Assembly (NCBI GenBank): GCA_963639245.1
Contig: CAVHVI010000001.1
Span: 7,145 to 71,144, forward strand
Source of the DNA: Bacteroidaceae bacterium
GTDB lineage: Bacteria; Pseudomonadota; Gammaproteobacteria; Enterobacterales; Succinivibrionaceae
Length of the DNA: 64,000 nucleotides
Direction: 5' to 3'
A program made the position numbers and the translations under genes. This document shows, piece by piece, positions 3,208 through 10,259 of the stretch (position 1 is the stretch's first letter; the number at the start of each line of letters is the position of its first letter). The notes under the pieces were generated by a model. That model was given only the letters and a program-made list of their open reading frames with translations. It made no database searches and had not been told where the DNA came from.

Positions 3208-5538
3208 TTATTCCAACGTAAACTCAGGGATCTCCATTTCATCTTCAGAAGAACCATCTTCTTCATCAGTCCCCTTAGGCAAAATCACCTCAATATAATC
3301 AACCTTCTGATAACCACGAGGTAATACTTCGCCAGCACGAGTTCTTGACGAGAGCTTGTTCTCAAGATCAGCAACAGAAATCTTTAGGATCTTCTTGCCC
3401 GCATGTACAACTGCACTACCACCTTGAGGTACAGCAGCTACTGCAGCTAAGCCATCCATACCCACCTCAAGCTTAGCGCCATTGATGGCTATGAGCTTAT
3501 TGCCACGACCAGAGCTTAACAAAGGAAGCTCGGAGGCCTTATAGACTAAGATCCTGCCCTGACGTGATGCTACTACTATCTTGTCCTCATCACGGGATAC
3601 TAGCTTCACTGGTGGTAACAGAGTTGACTGCTCATCCATGCTAATAAAGGACTTGCCTGCCTTCATGCGAGTAAGCAGAGCATCGGACTTACAGATATAG
3701 CCATAATCCCCAGAGGTTGCAAATAGATAGTGCTCATCTTTACGAGGGATTAAAACATATACCACCTTCTCCTCAGGAGATAAGGTAACCTTAGAGGTAA
3801 TAGGCTCACCCTGACCACGGGCAGAAGGCAGATCGGCAATATCCACGTTATAAACACGGCCTAACGAGGTAATAAAGCAGGCTGTCTCATTGGTATAGCC
3901 TGAGATCTTAGCCATAAAGCCATCACCACTACGATAGGACATGCCCTCAGCATCAACATTAAGACCACTAGCAGCTCTGATCCAGCCCATCTTGGAGACT
4001 ATTACAGTGACCGGCTGACGAGGAATTAATTCATCACCTTGTACTGCAACTGCAGCCTCATGCTCGCAGATCTCTGACATACGCTCATCACCATAGAGCT
4101 TGCGATCGGCCTTGATCTCTTTTTTGATTAAGGACTTTAATTTCTTTTCAGATGCAAGTAGCTCTTCAAGATCCTGCTTTTCCTTAGTGAGTTCATCCTG
4201 CTCACCGCGGATCTTAATTTCCTGGAGTCTTGCTAACTGACGCAGCTTGGTATCGAGCACATAGTCTGCCTGCATCTCATCAAGACCAAAGCGCTCCATG
4301 AGCTCAGCCTTAGGCTTCTCGCTTTCACGTACTATGCGTAATACCTCATCTAAATTGAGGTATACAGTCATCAAAGCTTCTAAAACATGTAACCTAGCAT
4401 TAACCTGCTCTAGACGATAGGAAAGACGACGGCGTACCGACTGATGTCTAAACTCAAGCCACTCTTTTAAAATTACCTTTAAATCCTTAACCTGAGGCTT
4501 ACCATCTAAGCCGAGCATATTGAGATTTACACGATAGGTAGTCTCAAGATCGGTTGAGGCATAGAGAAACTCCATCAGTTCATCGACATCCACCCTCTTT
4601 GAGCGTGGCACAATGATGAGCTTACAAGGATCGCTGTGATCGGATGCATTGATAACATCATCGACCAAAGGAAGCTTCTTCTTCTCCATCAAGTCAGAGA
4701 TTTGCTTTTCAATCAAACCACCTGAAACCTGATAAGGCATTGCGCGAATTACAATACCTTCCTCTTCAACCTTATATACGGCACGCATTCTGACGCTACC
4801 ACGGCCAGTCTCATAGATCTTCAAAAGCTCCTGATGCGAGGAGGTGATCTGAGCACGGGTGGGATAATCAGGGCCTTGGATGAATTTCATGAGATCGGCA
4901 ACAGAGCAATCCTCATGATCCATAAGATAGATAGTGGCATCAGCTACCTCACATAGGTTATGCGGAGGAATATCCGTTGCCATACCCACAGCGATACCGG
5001 TAGTACCATTTAAGAGAATGGCGGGTAATCTTGCAGGCAGATCCTTAGGCTCATTGCGCTGACCATCAAAGTTCTTAATCCATTCAACGCAGCCTGTTTT
5101 TAAATCTGATAAAAGGGCGTTGGAGAATTTAGTAAGCTTAGCCTCGGTATAACGATAGGCTGCATAGGATTTAGGATCTTCCTGATCACCCCAGTTACCC
5201 TCACCATGTACTAGCGGATAACGGAAGGAGAAAGGCTGAGCCATAAGCACCATAGCTTCATAGCAGGCACTATCACCGTGAGGATGATAATGACCAATAA
5301 CGTTACCTACAGTGGTGGCTGACTTTAAGGTTTGAGAATCAGGGGAGAGACCTGCCTCAGCCATAGCATAGAGAATACGGCGCTGAACTGGTTTTAGACC
5401 ATCGGTGACGCAGGGTAGAGCACGATCACGGATCACGCTCATGGAATAGTTTAGATAAGCATCCTCGGCAAATTTTTTAAGCGGGGTGCATTCGATGCCT
5501 TCAAGGCTTAATTCTTCTGGTTTTAATTCGTCTGTCAT
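3208..5538 (-). CDS. parC: DNA topoisomerase IV subunit A
   Basis: [39 protein letters not shown] catalytic Tyr, [10 protein letters not shown]. No GyrA box. Confidence 0.95.
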
Positions 5539-5705: not shown

Positions 5706-6392
5706 TTGGGCCCTTTTTTAAATCTAAAATCGTTATCTAAGCATCCTTCGGAGCTTTTTGTGAGACCCTTAGTTTACAGTATTATTACCTCGATCTTCAC
5801 CCTAGCATCATCACAAGTTTTAGCCTTTGAACCTCTCCCTGCAGATTTACTATCTCAAGCCATTACCTCAGGCGTCGAATACGACGAGGAATTTGACTAT
5901 ACCAAATTAAAAAGAGTAAATAACCTTCCCTTATACGCTAACGGAATAAGTAGTGCAGTTAAACGCGGCATTGTAGATAAGGTTGTAGTTTATAAAATGC
6001 GTCATGAAATGATGCTGATGAAAAAGGATCAGGTTATTAAGAAATTCTGGATCGCGCTATCAGATAGACCTGAAGGCAAAAAGCAGTTTGAGGGTGATAA
6101 GCGTACCCCTGAGGGAACCTATACTCTAGATTACATCAAAAATCATTCACGCTACTACAAGGCCTTCCACATTTCCTATCCCAATTCAGAGGATATAAAA
6201 TTTGCCCGCTCTTATGGAAGACGCGCCGGAGGCATGATCATGGTACATGGTCAGCCTGCAACTGGTGGTGAGTATGAGGAAACCGTACAGCGTACTAACT
6301 GGACCAATGGCTGTATTGCCCTTTTAAATCCTGATCTAGATTTATTCTTCTCGATGGTAGATGTGGGAACTCCTATAACCATTCATCCGTAA
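5706..6392 (+). CDS. YkuD-family L,D-transpeptidase/peptidase (YafK-like). Start codon uncertain.
   Basis: GDKRTPEGTY, FHISYPN, IMVHG and WTNGCIAL with the catalytic His/Cys. Confidence 0.85.
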   Translation: MGPFLNLKSLSKHPSELFVRPLVYSIITSIFTLASSQVLAFEPLPADLLSQAITSGVEYDEEFDYTKLKRVNNLPLYANGISSAVKRGIVDKVVVYKMRHEMMLMKKDQVIKKFWIALSDRPEGKKQFEGDKRTPEGTYTLDYIKNHSRYYKAFHISYPNSEDIKFARSYGRRAGGMIMVHGQPATGGEYEETVQRTNWTNGCIALLNPDLDLFFSMVDVGTPITIHP

Positions 6393-6652: not shown

Positions 6653-7021
6653 TTAATGCCACTGATCCTCATCTGGAAACCAGACCACAGTTCCAAGCTT
6701 TTCATCCATTCCCTCGGCAGTAAAATAAACATCTGCAAAATGCACTGACAACACATCTTCTGCACTCTTGCCCTCAGGTACAAAATACAATGAGGCGCGA
6801 ATGATATCACCTTCCCCCACCTCTTCAGGATCAAGGAACATTTCTGTGCCATCAAGTGCACATTCAATCTCTAAAGCATCATTACCAGAGAGCTTTACCA
6901 AACGCTCATACTGACGTTGGTTATTCTCATATAAAGATTCAGATGCTGCGTAGTAAAGCTCGACAGCATAGCTAGACATTGCCTCAAATACGTCATCACT
7001 TAATTCATCTGGATTAAACAT
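6653..7021 (-). CDS. Highly acidic protein, probably HI1450/YciU-type dsDNA mimic (alternative GTG start at 7030)
   Basis: About 120 aa, very Asp/Glu-rich. LDPEE motif, FA.V.F strand and terminal VVW recall HI1450. AGGTGA before the ATG at 7021. Confidence 0.55.
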   Translation of the reverse strand: MFNPDELSDDVFEAMSSYAVELYYAASESLYENNQRQYERLVKLSGNDALEIECALDGTEMFLDPEEVGEGDIIRASLYFVPEGKSAEDVLSVHFADVYFTAEGMDEKLGTVVWFPDEDQWH

Positions 7022-7063
7022 ATCTCTCACCTAATAAAACAAGCTCTATTCAAAATTTAGCGC

Positions 7064-7091
7064 AAAAAAAAGGGATGCCCTAAGACACCCC
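7064..7091 (-). terminator. Intrinsic terminator closing the alpha operon after the second rpoA
   Basis: Minus strand GGGGTGTC-TTAG-GGCATCCC followed by T8. Confidence 0.8.
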
Positions 7092-7112
7092 ATTTTATAG
7101 CAATTCTTGCGA

Positions 7113-8099
7113 CTAATTGTCGAGATCCTCAGGAGGCCAGTTCTCTAGGCGCATACCCAAAGAAAGTCCTCTCTCGGCCAAAACGTCCTTAATTTCAGTA
7201 AGAGACTTCTTACCAAGATTAGGAGTCTTAAGCAATTCAACTTCGGTACGCTGTACCAAATCACCAATGTACTTAATTCCCTCTGCCTTCAAGCAGTTAG
7301 CAGAACGTACAGTTAACTCAAGATCCTCAACAGGGCAAATTAGCTTAGGATCAATGAAGGTGGTTAATGTAGATACCTCAGCAGGAGCGACGCTGTTGCG
7401 AATATCAACAAAGCTATTGAGCTGATCTGCGAAAATAGTGCCGGCAATTGACACTGCAACCGTCGGATCAATAGTTCCGTTAGTCTCAATGTTCAGGATC
7501 AATCTCTCCATGCCACCAGCGATGGGCTCTTCATGAACTGCAACATTTAATACAGGGCAGTATGAAGGGTCGATATTCAAACGACCGATGAAACGCTCTT
7601 CAGCACCATCATAAGATGAAGGATGATACTGATTAGGGCAGTAGCCACGACCACGAGTTACATGTAAACGCATCTTAAGATGCTTAGACTCTTCGGTAAG
7701 GTGGAGCAGTACAAGCTCAGGATTACGGATTGAAACACCTGCAGGGCAAACGATGTCGCCAGCGGTAACAGGTCCGATACCCTGCTTGGAAATTTCCAAT
7801 ACAGGATCGTCGTGCAATAAGCCTTCAACAGCTACTGCAACTTCCTTGAGATTGAGCAGTACAAGAAGAATGTCTTCCTGAATGCCTTCAACTGCACTGT
7901 ACTCATGCACAACACCATCGATCTCAACTGAGGAAATTGCATATCCAGGAATTGAAGATAGCATGATGCGGCGAAGAGCGGTACCCACAATGTGGGCATA
8001 CTCGGGCTCGAAAGGCTCAAGGGTCACTCGGTAGTTGTTCTCAGAGAGAGTTTCTACGTCCTTGATGTTCGGCATTAAAGAATCAATATTCTGATCCAA
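7113..8099 (-). CDS. rpoA: RNA polymerase alpha subunit, second paralogue (downstream of rplQ)
   Basis: [25 protein letters not shown] and a full alpha-CTD ([14 protein letters not shown]...[11 protein letters not shown]). TTG start with GAGGG SD. Confidence 0.95.
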
Positions 8100-8141
8100 G
8101 GTCTTACCCTCGTCTATACAGTTGATTAGCAGAAAACTTGA

Positions 8142-8165
8142 TAAGGCGCGGCAAACCGCGCCTTA
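8142..8165. other. GC-rich hairpin between rplQ and rpoA2, without an adjacent U tract
   Basis: TAAGGCGCGG-CAAA-CCGCGCCTTA perfect 10-bp stem. Minus-strand 3' flank is TCAAG. Confidence 0.7.
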
Positions 8166-8174
8166 AGTAATGGC

Positions 8175-8564
8175 TTAAGCCTCAGTCTCTTCAGACTCAG
8201 CAGCCTGCGGTCTGTCAACCAACATGATGTAGGCAACGGGTGCCTGATCACCAGGGCGACGGCCGGCTTTAAGGATACGGGTGTAACCGCCCTTACGCTC
8301 AGCAGAAAGCTTGCCGATTACGGTGAAGAGCTTGTTAACAACAGCATCGTCACGTAAACGAGCAAAAGCTAAACGACGGTTGGCAACGGTATCAACCTTA
8401 GCCAAAGTGATTAAAGGCTCAGCAAAACGACGAAGTTCTTTAGCCTTGGGAACAGTGGTCTTAATAACTTCGTAAGTAAAGAGAGCATTAGCAAGATTGC
8501 GATACAGCGCTGCACGATGTGAAGCGGTGCGGCCTAAGTGACGGCCGGCTAAACGATGACGCAT
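8175..8564 (-). CDS. rplQ: 50S ribosomal protein L17
   Basis: [35 protein letters not shown]. Confidence 0.98.
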
Positions 8565-8594
8565 TTCCTAATTCCTTCTGTAAAAACAGTTCGT

Positions 8595-9584
8595 TTATTT
8601 GGTTGACTTCAATCCCGGAGGAGGCCAATTGGCAACTCTCATTCCGAGAGAAAGACCTCTCTGAGCCAAGACATCCTTAATTTCAGTTAAGGACTTCTTG
8701 CCCAAATTAGGGGTCTTTAGCAACTCAACCTCGGTACGCTGTACCAAATCACCAATATAAATGATGGACTCAGCCTTGAGGCAGTTGGCGCTACGAACAG
8801 TAAGTTCCAAATCATCAACACTCTGCATAAGCAAAGGATCGGGAAGAGGAGGTGCTGAGGGAGCGATTGACTGCTCAGCAACTTCATCCTGATTTACGAT
8901 GTTGACGATGGTCTTCTTGATAAGATCAGCGCCCTGCATGATAGCTTCGTCAGGGGTCACGACACCGTTGGTCTCGATATCAATAACCAAACGATCTAAA
9001 TCGGTACGCTGTTCAACACGCGCAGCTTCAGTGCCGTAAACAAAACGGCGAACTGGCGTATAGCTTGCGTCGATGAGGATGTCCCCTTCTGCTGAAGGAG
9101 GAATATGCTCATCAGATGAAGCTAGAACATAGCCACAACCAGAGGTGATGCGTACTTTAATCTTTACCGAAGCCTTTTCACCGACCAAGGTGCACACAAG
9201 TGCATCAGGATCAACAAATGAAACGCCCTCGGGGCACTTAAAGTCAGCAGCGGTAAGTTTACCTTCACCCTGCTTTTCAGCCTCACACCATTGAGGAGTT
9301 AATACTTGAGTATCACATTTAACTGCAAGATCCTTGCAGTTCATGATAACTTCAAACATTGACTCGGCAACGTCTGAGATAGAGCCATTCACGTCCTTTA
9401 CACCCTCGACACGTACGGCATCAACCGCATTGCCAGGGAAGGTCTTGAGTAAGACTCCGCTGAGAGCAGTGCCTAAGGTGTGACCGAAACCGCGTTCTAA
9501 AGGCTCAAGTACAACATGAGCCTTATTTAATCCGATCTCGGTGAAATCCACTGGCTTAGGTTTCAGCAGTTCACAAACAGACAC
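8595..9584 (-). CDS. rpoA: RNA polymerase alpha subunit, paralogue at the canonical position (rpsD-rpoA-rplQ)
   Basis: [27 protein letters not shown] and a full alpha-CTD. GTG start. Confidence 0.95.
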
Positions 9585-9629
9585 TAGATTTACCCCACAT
9601 TAAGTATAGGTGTTGGCACAGAGCCGTTA

Positions 9630-10259
9630 TTACTTCGAGTACAACTCGACGATGAGTGCTTCCTTGATGTCAGCAGGGAGCTCAGCACGCTCAGGCTTGC
9701 TCTTATAAGTACCCTTTAAGTTATCCTGATCAACTTCGATCCAGGTAGGCTTAAGAGCACGCTGACCAGCTAAGTCAAGAGCAGACTTAATACGGCTCTG
9801 CTTCTTAGCTTTTTCGCGAACTGCGATCACATCGTTAGGCTTAACTTCGTATGAAGGAATGTTTACAACGCGGTCGTTTACAGTGATAGCCTTGTGGGAT
9901 ACCAACTGACGGGCTTCCATACGGGTAGAGCCAAAACCCATGCGGTAAACAACGTTATCCAAGCGACCTTCGAGAAGCTGAAGTAGGTTCTCACCGGTGT
10001 TGCCAGGAAGACGGGTTGCCTTCTTATAATAATTGCGGAACTGACGCTCGAGCACGCCGTAAATACGACGAACCTTCTGCTTCTCGCGTAACTGAACGCC
10101 GTAGTCAGAAAGGCGGGGCTTATTAGCACCATGCTGGCCGGGAACAACAGTCAAGCGATCCTTGCACTTTGATTCAATTGCACGGACACCAGACTTTAGG
10201 AATAAGTCAACACCCTCGCGGCGGCTTAATTTCAGGGCAGGACCTGTATATTTTGCCAT
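9630..10259 (-). CDS. rpsD: 30S ribosomal protein S4
   Basis: [30 protein letters not shown]. Confidence 0.98.

What the first reader, a model, noticed from the sequence alone, without database searches (positions are those of the whole stretch)
7113..9584. Two RNA polymerase alpha subunits in one operon with complementary motif loss: probable obligate alpha heterodimer
Seen in the sequence: the order is rpsD-rpoA1(329 aa)-rplQ-rpoA2(328 aa), both intact with SD sites. Compared with E. coli alpha (recalled from memory), rpoA1 keeps [13 protein letters not shown] and [10 protein letters not shown] (R191 loop). It has lost R44/R45 (ALRRILLSS becomes ALSGVLLKT) and HEYS (becomes DVNG). rpoA2 is the mirror image. 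It keeps [22 protein letters not shown] and RGRGY, but ERGFG becomes EPEYA and the RVEQRTD loop is shortened to PIAGG. Established: alpha R45 is needed for beta binding, R191 is the site of a classic ts allele, bacterial alpha is normally a homodimer, and Francisella has a two-paralogue alpha heterodimer. Inference: rpoA2 has become the beta-contacting alphaI and rpoA1 the beta'-side alphaII. This would be subfunctionalisation paralleling archaeal/eukaryotic Rpo3/Rpo11, probably independent of Francisella. I do not know of a description in this lineage.
Basis: partly seen in the sequence, partly recalled or inferred. Interest (0 to 1): 0.95.

Follow-up and report, generated by a model that had tools for sequence, protein, structure and literature searches.

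The report
Two-alpha RNA polymerase in Succinivibrionaceae
This gut/rumen bacterium and most of its family carry two different genes for the RNA polymerase alpha subunit, each missing what the other keeps, so the enzyme is probably built on a fixed pair of unlike alphas, as was known before only in Francisella.

Summary
On the minus strand the order is rpsD, rpoA (329 aa, 'op'), rplQ, rpoA (328 aa, 'dn'). Both are full-length alphas, 42% identical to each other. Their N-terminal domains have diverged and their C-terminal domains are conserved.

The pair is not a local oddity. 80 of 98 genomes of the family (Succinivibrionaceae) have two copies. Three genera, and 15 of 16 sister families, have one.

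Of 73 N-terminal sites nearly invariant in single-copy alphas:
- 14 are lost only in op, including R44, R45 and H66-Y68 (beta contact).
- 14 are lost only in dn, including R33, G34, G36, T38 and the R191 loop (R191 bridges beta' D410/D413).
- 2 are lost in both.

The same partition occurs in Francisella alpha2 and alpha1. Both copies are under purifying selection, and a heterodimer model passes its controls.

Best reading: an oriented heterodimer with dn as alphaI (beta side) and op as alphaII (beta' side).

- The ERGFG change lies at the predicted alpha-alpha interface, not at a shown beta' contact.
- Independence from Francisella is likely but not resolved by trees.

A Ruminobacter-type clade shows an intermediate stage. 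There is no biochemical evidence. I found no description in print.

The parts
9630..10259 (-). rpsD (ribosomal protein S4), the gene before alpha in the alpha operon
   Evidence: ORF. It is 70-100% identical to the S4 encoded next to rpoA in all related loci. The E. coli rpsD-rpoA-rplQ annotation was seen.
8595..9584 (-). rpoA 'op' copy (329 aa) in the canonical position. It keeps R33-G36, T38 and the [10 protein letters not shown] loop with R191. It has lost R44, R45, S49, S50, H66-Y68, D77 and Q227. It is the proposed alphaII (beta'-side) subunit.
   Evidence: three alpha Pfam families; E. coli alpha 321 bits; Francisella alpha2 184 bits, above alpha1 164 bits; N-terminal domain dN/dS 0.08-0.19.
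8175..8564 (-). rplQ (ribosomal protein L17), normally the last gene of the alpha operon
   Evidence: ORF. L17 homologues sit in the same position in all loci.
8143..8164 (-). GC-rich hairpin (9 bp stem, UUUG loop) just after rplQ, without a U-run. It is probably the weakened relic of the operon terminator, allowing read-through into the second rpoA.
   Evidence: fold; 81-nt spacer -23.8 kcal/mol, z -1.97. One search did not call it a terminator. A hairpin at this place is seen in all 19 related spacers folded. Four of the five Ruminobacter-type spacers folded (L081, L082, L083, L086) show a hairpin followed by a T-run, and the scan called two of them (L081, L083) terminator-like. Its function is inferred.
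7113..8099 (-). rpoA 'dn' copy (328 aa, TTG start). It keeps R44/R45, S49/S50, HEYS, D77 and Q227. It has lost R33, G34, G36 and T38, and the 190-197 loop is degenerate and 4-5 residues shorter. It is the proposed alphaI (beta-side) subunit.
   Evidence: E. coli alpha 355 bits; Francisella alpha1 207 bits, above alpha2 139 bits; N-terminal domain dN/dS 0.05-0.10.
7062..7091 (-). Strong intrinsic-terminator-like hairpin plus T8 run after the second rpoA, the likely present end of the operon
   Evidence: 8-pair stem, 5 GC pairs, tail TTTTTTTTGC. No promoter-like site lies in the rplQ-rpoA spacer.

Best explanation
The two genes encode the two halves of an oriented alpha heterodimer on which this organism's single beta and beta' assemble.

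The downstream copy (dn) keeps the beta determinants (R45, H66-E67-Y68, S49/S50, D77) but lacks the R191 loop. It takes the alphaI position. The operon copy (op) keeps the R191 loop that salt-bridges beta' D410/D413 but lacks R44/R45 and HEYS. It takes the alphaII position.

One half of the dimer interface is ancestral: op F35/T38/L39 against dn R45/I46/S50/Q227. The other half is remodelled on both sides: dn Y35/I38/V39 against op G45/V46/T50/H227. This should favour the heterodimer over either homodimer.

The pair arose by a tandem duplication in an ancestor of most Succinivibrionaceae, followed by stepwise complementary decay:
1. dn lost the beta'-side loop first, in all two-copy genera.
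2. op lost the beta determinants later, only in the Succinivibrio/Succinatimonas/Anaerobiospirillum clade, to which this window belongs.
3. In that clade dn also lost its own promoter and the terminator before it weakened, so both alphas are made from one operon.

Both C-terminal domains stay E. coli-like, so the split concerns assembly and not promoter or activator contacts.

Shown: gene order, motif states, distribution, selection, and the parallel with Francisella. Inferred: heterodimer formation, its orientation, obligateness and co-transcription.
For: Structure and distribution:
- Both are intact three-domain alphas.
- There are exactly two in the genome and one rpoC.
- 80 of 98 family genomes have two matches, 11 have one and 7 have none.
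- All 14 two-copy genera have a representative with the same synteny, except one genome where dn moved about 47 kb.

Complementarity:
- Of 73 N-terminal-domain sites at least 95% conserved in 41 single-copy sequences, 14 are lost only in op, 14 only in dn, 2 in both, 27 are kept in both and 16 are variable.
- op loses 10 of 26 conserved sites in the published beta footprint and 1 of 9 in the beta' footprint. dn loses 5 of 9 in the beta' footprint (footprints as quoted in PMC3294249).

Function of the key residues:
- R45A abolishes beta binding (PMC3294249, text read).
- R191 salt-bridges beta' D410/D413 (PMC9177976, passages).
- R191C is rpoA101, which gives an unstable RNAP (PMC8092217, passages).
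- D410 and D413 are conserved here.

Parallel with Francisella, where the alpha1/alpha2 heterodimer and alpha1-beta binding were shown biochemically (PMC3294249):
- 13 of 17 op-lost sites are also lost in alpha2 (odds ratio 8.1).
- 14 of 18 dn-lost sites are also lost in alpha1 (odds ratio 9.3).
- The crossed comparisons give odds ratios of about 0.5.
- The Francisella copies were identified by 566 and 563 bits to 6WMP chains A and B.

Selection:
- dN/dS is 0.05-0.19 in the N-terminal domains and at most 0.09 in the C-terminal domains, over 10 species pairs.
- dS between the two C-terminal domains is 1.3, so their likeness is due to selection, not recent gene conversion.

Heterodimer model of the two N-terminal domains:
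- Score 0.78 in three runs, best control 0.38.
- That mark was reached by 116 of 157 solved complexes and 2 of 215 mismatched pairs.
- The runs share at least 87% of contacts, and the partner's pLDDT is at least 82.
- A like complex is solved, so the pass may be from memory.

Operon: the only strong terminator lies after dn, and no promoter-like site lies before it.
Against: - There is no protein-level evidence. Expression, 1:1 presence in RNAP and failure of homodimers are all untested. No RNA run could be listed.
- The complex model says nothing about homodimers, which were not folded (one job only).
- The dn changes at 33-38 lie inside the published 'beta footprint' (30-55). The simple rule 'each copy decays only at the interface it does not use' therefore does not cover them. 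I explain them as dimer-interface remodelling on the basis of a predicted model only.
- E. coli R191C is viable at low temperature (PMC8092217, PMC9177976). Francisella alpha1 alone gave weak activity (PMC3294249). A dn homodimer enzyme could therefore exist as a minor form, and 'obligate' may be too strong.
- K200 and N41 are lost in both copies.
- The site-association p-values overstate the case, because neighbouring sites (one loop) are not independent.
Confidence: 0.72

Rival explanations
1. Facultative rather than obligate. The op-dn heterodimer is the main form, but a dn-dn homodimer also supports a minor, functional RNAP, as reported for Francisella alpha1.
For: dn keeps R45, HEYS and K86. 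Loss of the R191 contact is tolerated at low temperature in E. coli (PMC8092217 and PMC9177976, passages). Francisella alpha1 alone gave low activity (PMC3294249, text read).
Against: dn has changed F35, G36, T38 and L39, while its own 46/50/227 stay ancestral. A dn-dn interface would therefore pair changed with unchanged surfaces twice. The whole 190-197 loop is lost or deleted, not just R191. op remains under purifying selection.
Confidence: 0.15
2. Two alternative polymerases. Each alpha forms its own homodimer, giving two core enzymes with different regulatory properties.
For: Two complete alphas with intact C-terminal domains and different linkers. In the Ruminobacter-type clade the dn copy has its own promoter-like site, which would allow separate regulation.
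Against: op in this clade lacks R44/R45, and R45A alone abolishes beta binding in E. coli (PMC3294249). An op homodimer should therefore not assemble with beta. The losses are complementary, with 2 of 30 shared, which is not expected for two self-sufficient subunits. The C-terminal domains are almost the same (87% identity to E. coli each), leaving little basis for different regulation. In this window the two genes share one operon.
Confidence: 0.05
3. One copy has left RNA polymerase and acts as something else, such as a decoy for alpha-CTD-binding regulators or an assembly chaperone.
For: Both copies have evolved faster than single-copy alphas: PF01000 scores 58.8 and 88.4 bits against 106-135 bits, and long stems in the tree.
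Against: Each copy retains exactly the determinants the other lacks. Both N-terminal domains have dN/dS of 0.19 or less. The same pattern belongs to two bona fide RNAP subunits in Francisella (PDB 6WMP).
Confidence: 0.04
4. The origin is not independent. The two Succinivibrionaceae alphas are orthologues of Francisella alpha2 and alpha1, through an old shared duplication or transfer of one or both genes. The motif pattern would then be inherited, not convergent.
For: With Francisella included, the 91-row tree puts alpha1 next to the dn clade (SH-aLRT 84) and alpha2 inside a starred clade with op (99). A tree constrained to alpha1+dn had a log-likelihood 24 units higher than the quick free tree (p-AU 0.94). 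In my own AU test none of four topologies was rejected (p 0.26-0.57).
Against: - The Francisella stems are 2.1 and 2.4 changes per site, and their place shifts with taxon sampling. That is typical of long-branch attraction aided by convergent sites.
- Without Francisella, op and dn are sister clades nested in the family next to its single-copy genera.
- In the 400 Gammaproteobacteria genomes scored, two divergent copies occur only in this genome (the one member of its family in that sample) and in Francisella.
- 15 of 16 sister families have one copy and one has no match.
- The beta-binding type sits in the operon in Francisella but downstream of rplQ here.
- op of the Ruminobacter-type clade still has R44/R45 in 6 of 6 sequences and E67/Y68 in 5 of 6. 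That half of the pattern therefore arose inside the family.
- The loop deletions differ: E. coli positions 193-196 here, 188-192 in Francisella.
- C-terminal-domain identity to E. coli is 87% here and 62-64% in Francisella.
Confidence: 0.2

Closest known systems
Francisella RNA polymerase alpha1/alpha2 heterodimer (Charity 2007, abstract seen; Mukhamedyarov 2011, PMC3294249, text read; PDB 6WMP/6WMR/6WMT)
   Same: Two divergent full-length alphas are conserved across a lineage. One keeps R45 and HEYS but lacks the R191 loop and has G36A, T38I and D199E. The other has lost R44/R45 and HEYS but keeps R33-G36 and the ARVxxRTDLD loop. The lost sites overlap strongly. Both copies evolved faster after duplication.
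   Different: - A different family of Gammaproteobacteria.
- Here the genes are tandem in the alpha operon, and the extra downstream copy is the beta-binding type. In Francisella the beta-binding alpha1 is the operon copy and alpha2 lies elsewhere.
- Here both C-terminal domains remain about 87% identical to E. coli, against 62-64% in Francisella.
- Extant genera preserve an intermediate stage.
- There is no biochemistry here.
- Orthology with the Francisella genes was tested and is unresolved.
Archaeal/eukaryotic Rpo3-Rpo11 (RPB3-RPB11, AC40-AC19) heterodimer
   Same: A fixed, oriented pair of alpha-like subunits in which only the larger one carries the R45-equivalent contact to the beta-like subunit (as discussed in PMC3294249).
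   Different: Both proteins here are typical bacterial alphas of equal size, each with the bacterial C-terminal domain (PF03118). The duplication is recent and family-level. No Rpo10/Rpo12-like partners are implied.
Engineered oriented E. coli alpha heterodimers (wild type plus R45A), as cited in PMC3294249
   Same: One alpha that cannot bind beta is forced into the alphaII position, giving an RNAP with defined alphaI and alphaII.
   Different: That asymmetry is made in the laboratory with a single substitution. Here it is natural and reciprocal: the other copy has lost the beta'-side loop. It also comes with a remodelled half of the dimer interface.
Other rpoA duplications listed in PMC3294249 (three Chloroflexus species, Streptomyces avermitilis, Psychromonas ingrahamii, Leptospira borgpetersenii)
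   Same: More than one rpoA gene in a bacterial genome.
   Different: The Psychromonas and Leptospira copies are reported there as identical recent segment duplications. No complementary motif loss is reported for any of them. I did not examine these genomes.

Membership tests
Bacterial RNA polymerase alpha subunit (RpoA) | N-terminal dimerisation domain plus insert domain (PF01193, PF01000) | tested here: met
   Both copies are above the curated cut-offs. PF01193 scores 53.9 bits in each. PF01000 scores 56.9 bits (op) and 86.6 bits (dn).
Bacterial RNA polymerase alpha subunit (RpoA) | Bacterial alpha C-terminal domain (PF03118) | tested here: met
   81.8 and 85.9 bits. Median 87% identity to the E. 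coli C-terminal domain in both copies.
Bacterial RNA polymerase alpha subunit (RpoA) | Encoded between rpsD and rplQ in the alpha operon | tested here: met
   Met for the op copy. The dn copy lies directly after rplQ.
Francisella-type heterodimeric alpha pair | Two divergent paralogues kept throughout a lineage | tested here: met
   80 of 98 family genomes have two matches. 14 of 17 genera have two-copy members.
Francisella-type heterodimeric alpha pair | Only one paralogue keeps the R45 beta determinant | tested here: met
   dn has R44/R45 in 16 of 16 Succinivibrio-type sequences. op has S/N/C at 44 and G/D/T at 45 in 16 of 16. This is not met in the Ruminobacter-type clade, where op keeps R44/R45 in 6 of 6.
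Francisella-type heterodimeric alpha pair | The beta-binding paralogue has lost the R191 loop, which the other keeps | tested here: met
   The dn loop is degenerate in 22 of 22 sequences and shortened in 16 of 16 Succinivibrio-type sequences. op keeps A190, R191, E193, Q194 and T196 in 22 of 22.
Francisella-type heterodimeric alpha pair | Both subunits are present in purified RNAP, and both are needed for efficient assembly and activity | not testable with these tools
   Needs purification, mass spectrometry and reconstitution. No RNA run was listed.
Francisella-type heterodimeric alpha pair | The N-terminal domains heterodimerise and homodimers are weak or absent | tested here: inconclusive
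   The heterodimer model passes (0.78 against best control 0.38), but a like complex is solved. Homodimers were not folded.
Francisella-type heterodimeric alpha pair | Common descent with the Francisella alpha1/alpha2 genes (orthology) | tested here: inconclusive
   Trees conflict with taxon sampling. AU tests reject neither arrangement.
Archaeal/eukaryotic Rpo3/Rpo11 pair | Unequal subunits lacking the bacterial C-terminal domain | tested here: not met
   Both proteins are about 328 aa and carry PF03118.

The most novel reading that the evidence does not exclude
Succinivibrionaceae are a second, independent origin of a heterodimeric alpha platform in bacteria, and they preserve the pathway in living genera.

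The proposed series:
1. Single-copy genera carry the ancestral alpha.
2. In a Ruminobacter-type stage a separately transcribed extra alpha has already lost the beta'-side loop, while the operon copy can still do everything (facultative heterodimer).
3. In a Succinivibrio-type stage the operon copy has lost the beta contact, one half of the dimer interface has co-changed on both partners, and the extra gene has been absorbed into the operon (obligate heterodimer).

The same residues decay in the same partner as in Francisella. This would mean that the built-in asymmetry of the core enzyme makes the route from homodimer to obligate heterodimer repeatable. With the C-terminal domains unchanged, the route would also look largely neutral, a complexity ratchet rather than a regulatory innovation.
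Probability: 0.5. Interest if true: 0.85.

Novelty: new member of a known kind. Interest (0 to 1): 0.72.

Why it matters
Bacterial RNA polymerase is taught as alpha2-beta-beta'-omega with two identical alphas. Francisella has been the one studied exception. A second lineage, common in rumen and gut communities and with cultivable members, would show that the exception recurs.

The residue-level parallel gives a natural map of which alpha residues matter only in the alphaI position and which only in the alphaII position. The staged states across genera make the evolution of an obligate heteromer from a homomer directly testable with a handful of recombinant proteins.

There is also a practical consequence. 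rpoA is used as a single-copy marker, and two divergent copies per genome can mislead marker-based phylogeny and completeness or contamination estimates for this family.

Tried and rejected
- Expression: no RNA holder was listed for window 7000-9700.
- Phylogeny to prove independence from Francisella: inconclusive. The 91-row tree groups the Francisella copies with dn and op. The 75-row tree does not. The one test carried on, alpha1+dn, was not rejected, and its tree was in fact better than the quick free tree. My own constrained -fast searches under LG+F+G4 rejected nothing. Site-wise likelihood differences were scattered and not concentrated in the motif regions. A full (non -fast) search timed out and printed nothing.
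- The Francisella RNAP structure paper (Travis et al. 2021) is not in the library. I saw it only as cited in PMC9304144 (passages). Which Francisella alpha sits next to beta in the structure is therefore not taken from that paper.
- Recent gene conversion as the reason for the near-identical C-terminal domains: rejected, since dS between them is 1.3.
- Assembly or binning artefact: rejected, since the same tandem arrangement occurs in complete genomes and isolates.
- G379, the only other two-match genome in the class sample, has two canonical rpsD-rpoA contexts on different contigs and 4% contamination. I take it as a mixed bin, not a paralogue pair.
- Literature: 0 papers hold Succinivibrionaceae+rpoA, Succinivibrio+rpoA or Anaerobiospirillum+rpoA. 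The phrase search for rpoA paralogues or duplications listed 20 of 668 hits, and among those only the Francisella papers and a plastid paper were relevant. Subscription journals are not covered.
- Not done: homodimer folds, folds with beta and beta', a survey outside Gammaproteobacteria, and a check of the Chloroflexus and Streptomyces duplicates.
Full report
WHAT IS THERE

On the minus strand the window carries the end of the ribosomal-protein cluster: secY, rpsM, rpsK, rpsD (9630-10259), an rpoA of 329 aa (8595-9584, GTG start; 'op' below), rplQ (8175-8564) and a second rpoA of 328 aa (7113-8099, TTG start; 'dn' below).
- Both proteins match all three alpha Pfam families above the curated cut-offs.
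- Both match E. coli alpha over their full length, at 321 and 355 bits.
- They are 42% identical to each other. The C-terminal domains are almost the same and the N-terminal domains have diverged.
I re-derived them against an E. coli rpoA fetched for numbering.
- The genome, a 2.3-Mb assembly of 260 contigs that is 91% complete, has exactly two alpha genes and one rpoC.

WHOSE GENOME, AND HOW WIDESPREAD

Close relatives of the dn protein come from records named Succinivibrio, Succinatimonas, Anaerobiospirillum, Ruminobacter and Succinivibrionaceae.

In 98 genomes of the family, 80 have two PF01000 matches about 1.5 kb apart, 11 have one and 7 have none.
- Nine of the eleven single-copy genomes belong to three genera (g31 with 7 of 7, g26, g32). 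Their only alpha scores like a normal one.
- The other two have the match at a contig end.
- The seven with no match are 76-97% complete.

Of 16 genomes from 16 other families of the same order, 15 have one match and one has none.

In a sample of 400 scored Gammaproteobacteria genomes, 386 have one match, 9 have none and 5 have two. One further genome could not be scored. Four of the single-copy genomes are flagged unpublished: G372, G382, G228 and G150. The five with two matches are:
- this genome;
- three genomes of one genus, whose copies are the Francisella alpha1 and alpha2 of PDB 6WMP (566 and 563 bits);
- one 4%-contaminated bin with two ordinary operon copies on separate contigs.

The order rpsD-op-rplQ-dn holds in representatives of all 14 two-copy genera. 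The exception is one genome where the dn-type gene lies about 47 kb away on the same contig.

THE COMPLEMENTARY PATTERN

I aligned 91 alphas:
- 35 single-copy Gammaproteobacteria, E. coli among them;
- 6 single-copy family members;
- 22 op and 22 dn sequences;
- 3+3 Francisella sequences.

I then examined the 73 N-terminal-domain sites that are at least 95% conserved in the 41 single-copy sequences. In the clade to which the window belongs (16 species pairs):
- 14 sites are lost only in op: R44, R45, S49, S50, H66, E67, Y68, G73, D77, L82, L83, L171, Q227, F231.
- 14 sites are lost only in dn: R33, G34, G36, T38, L47, V187, A190, R191, V192, Q194, R195, T196, L198, D199.
- 2 are lost in both (N41, K200), 27 are kept in both and 16 are variable.

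In dn the loop is also four to five residues shorter.

According to the literature quoted in PMC3294249 (text read), R45A abolishes beta binding, and beta protects residues 30-55 and 65-75. PMC9177976 (passages) states that alpha R191 salt-bridges beta' D410 and D413. PMC8092217 (passages) identifies R191C as the ts allele rpoA101, which gives an unstable enzyme. This genome's RpoC keeps both aspartates.

So op has lost what alphaI needs, and dn has lost what alphaII needs.

THE SAME PARTITION AS IN FRANCISELLA

Francisella alpha1 was shown to bind beta and to have weak activity alone (PMC3294249). It keeps RR and HEYS, has A36, I38 and E199, and lacks the loop. Alpha2 has KQ for RR and TSLE for HEYS, and keeps ERGVG and ARVGRRTDLD.

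Site by site:
- 13 of 17 op-lost sites are also lost in alpha2 (odds ratio 8.1, one-sided Fisher p 6e-4).
- 14 of 18 dn-lost sites are also lost in alpha1 (odds ratio 9.3, p 2e-4).
- The crossed comparisons give odds ratios of about 0.5.

These p-values overstate the case, because neighbouring loop sites are not independent. The PDB searches had already shown the cross-likeness. op scores higher with alpha2 (184 against 164 bits), and dn scores higher with alpha1 (207 against 139 bits).

THE DIMER INTERFACE AND THE ERGFG MOTIF

A model of the two N-terminal domains as a heterodimer scored 0.78 in three runs, against 0.38 for the best of three controls.
- That mark was reached by 116 of 157 solved complexes and 2 of 215 mismatched pairs.
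- The runs share at least 87% of contacts, and the partner's pLDDT is at least 82.
- Alpha dimers are solved, so the pass may be from memory.

The model's use here is its contact list. E. coli positions 31-35, 38-39, 45-46, 49-50 and about 216-233 of both chains are in the interface.
- op T38 touches dn R45/I46, an ancestral pair.
- op G45 touches dn I38. Both sides of this pair have changed.

This fits the published interface cluster of F35/T38/L39 of one monomer against I46/S50/Q227 of the other (PMC3294249). One half-interface, op 35/38/39 against dn 46/50/227, is ancestral. The other, dn Y35/I38/V39 against op V46/T50/H227, is changed on both partners.

The EPEYA change in dn is therefore better read as interface remodelling opposite op's freed 44-50 segment than as a loss of a beta' contact. 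Whether R33/G34 also touch beta' in the alphaII position I could not test.

BOTH GENES ARE MAINTAINED

Over ten species pairs, dN/dS of the N-terminal domain is 0.08-0.19 for op and 0.05-0.10 for dn, wherever dS could be estimated. For the C-terminal domains it is at most 0.09.

Between the two C-terminal domains of this genome dS is 1.3. Their likeness is therefore due to constraint and not to recent conversion.

Median identity to E. coli:
- C-terminal domain: 87% in op and in dn, 85% in the family's single-copy alphas, 62-64% in Francisella.
- N-terminal domain: 42.5% in op, 49.5% in dn, 65.5% in the single-copy alphas.

The divergence is confined to the assembly domain.

ORIGIN AND ORDER OF EVENTS

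Without Francisella, op and dn are each one clade (SH-aLRT 99). Together they form a clade that sits next to the family's single-copy genera and inside the order. That is the picture of one tandem duplication within the family.

Each paralogue clade splits into a Ruminobacter-type group (6 genera sampled, including records named Ruminobacter and WG-1) and a Succinivibrio-type group.

In the Ruminobacter-type group:
- op still has R44/R45 (6 of 6), E67 and Y68 (5 of 6), H66 (3 of 6), ERGFG and the full loop. It has already changed S49, E72-V74 and D77.
- dn has already lost R33, G34 and the loop residues, with D199E fixed. It keeps the loop length, F35, G36 and T38, and has a 15-residue insertion in the insert domain.

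So dn gave up the beta' side first. op gave up R45 and HEYS later, on the stem of the Succinivibrio-type group. That stem is long in both paralogues, 0.83 and 0.50 changes per site.

Gene expression signals changed in step:
- Four of the five Ruminobacter-type spacers folded (L081, L082, L083, L086) show a hairpin with a T-run after rplQ, followed by a 115-180 nt AT-rich spacer.
- In the two loci scanned there is a terminator-like site after rplQ and a promoter-like site matching 12 of 12 or 11 of 12 consensus positions before dn.
- In the window the spacer is 75 nt.
- The hairpin (8143-8164) has no U-run and was not called a terminator.
- No promoter-like site is present, and the only strong terminator follows dn.

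Co-transcription is inferred from this, not shown.

INDEPENDENT OF FRANCISELLA?

Trees do not settle this.
- With all 91 rows, alpha1 joins dn (SH-aLRT 84) and alpha2 falls in a starred clade with op (99). The Francisella stems are 2.1 and 2.4 changes per site.
- With 75 rows, both Francisella copies move to the outgroups and op+dn is one clade (support 82).
- A tree constrained to alpha1+dn was 24 log-likelihood units better than that quick tree (p-AU 0.94).
- Under LG+F+G4, four topologies were all retained (p-AU 0.26-0.57). The site-wise differences were scattered.

For an independent origin speak:
- the distribution;
- the swapped gene positions;
- the fact that the R45/HEYS loss happened inside the family;
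- the different loop deletions, E. coli positions 193-196 here and 188-192 in Francisella;
- the conserved C-terminal domains.

I put independence at about 0.8.

WHAT IS KNOWN, AND NOVELTY

The kind of system is known from Francisella: Charity 2007 (abstract seen), Mukhamedyarov 2011 (text read) and the 6WMP structures. Mukhamedyarov et al. listed other rpoA duplications in 1055 genomes, and none was in this family.

Searches for Succinivibrionaceae, Succinivibrio or Anaerobiospirillum together with rpoA found 0 papers. A phrase search for rpoA paralogues or duplications gave nothing relevant among the 20 listed of 668 hits. Subscription journals are not covered.

I file this as a new member of a known kind. 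It has features of its own: the tandem operon arrangement, the reversed assignment of the operon copy, unchanged C-terminal domains and living intermediates.

VERDICT

I give 0.72 to an oriented op(alphaII)-dn(alphaI) heterodimer as the main or only platform of this organism's RNA polymerase. The chief remaining doubts are whether a dn homodimer enzyme also exists, and whether the likeness to Francisella is convergent.

Noticed in passing
L015 and L016 (whole loci; match at 4001-4984): Two records titled 'Firmicutes bacterium CAG:534' and 'Akkermansia muciniphila' carry the same rpsD-rpoA-rplQ-rpoA stretch. Their proteins are about 97-100% identical to the window's (rpoA 97%, S4 100%, L17 99-100%). 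The titles look like mislabelled metagenome bins of a Succinivibrionaceae genome.
   Followed up: partly
L067 and L071 (G379, contigs C218 and C164): This was the only other two-match genome in the class sample. It has two ordinary rpsD-rpoA contexts on different contigs, with different sequences, and 4% contamination. It is probably a mixed bin and not a paralogue pair.
   Followed up: partly
L084 (1686-2696) and L085 (1385-2461), both G071 contig C140: In one Ruminobacter-type genome the dn-type alpha is not behind rplQ. It lies about 47 kb away on the same contig, so the pair need not stay tandem.
   Followed up: partly
L081 1392-2486, L082 3273-4322, L083 3291-4355, L086 1468-2553, L087 1143-2183: Ruminobacter-type dn copies are 346-364 aa. 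They carry an insertion of about 15 residues in the insert domain after E. coli position ~108 (NDP...DY.G). Its role is unknown.
   Followed up: no
L050 3858-3997, L055 3705-3997, L088 2500-2894: In some Anaerobiospirillum-labelled and related genomes the rplQ-dn spacer is 140-395 nt and folds into long hairpins (-50 to -120 kcal/mol). These could be inserted repeats or a structured leader. They were not examined further.
   Followed up: no
window 6653-7030 (-) and 5706-6392 (+): A 125-aa acidic ORF lies directly after the terminator of the second rpoA. On the other strand is a 228-aa ORF whose C-terminus resembles an L,D-transpeptidase catalytic motif (H..G...C). That motif is recalled from memory, and neither ORF was searched.
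   Followed up: no
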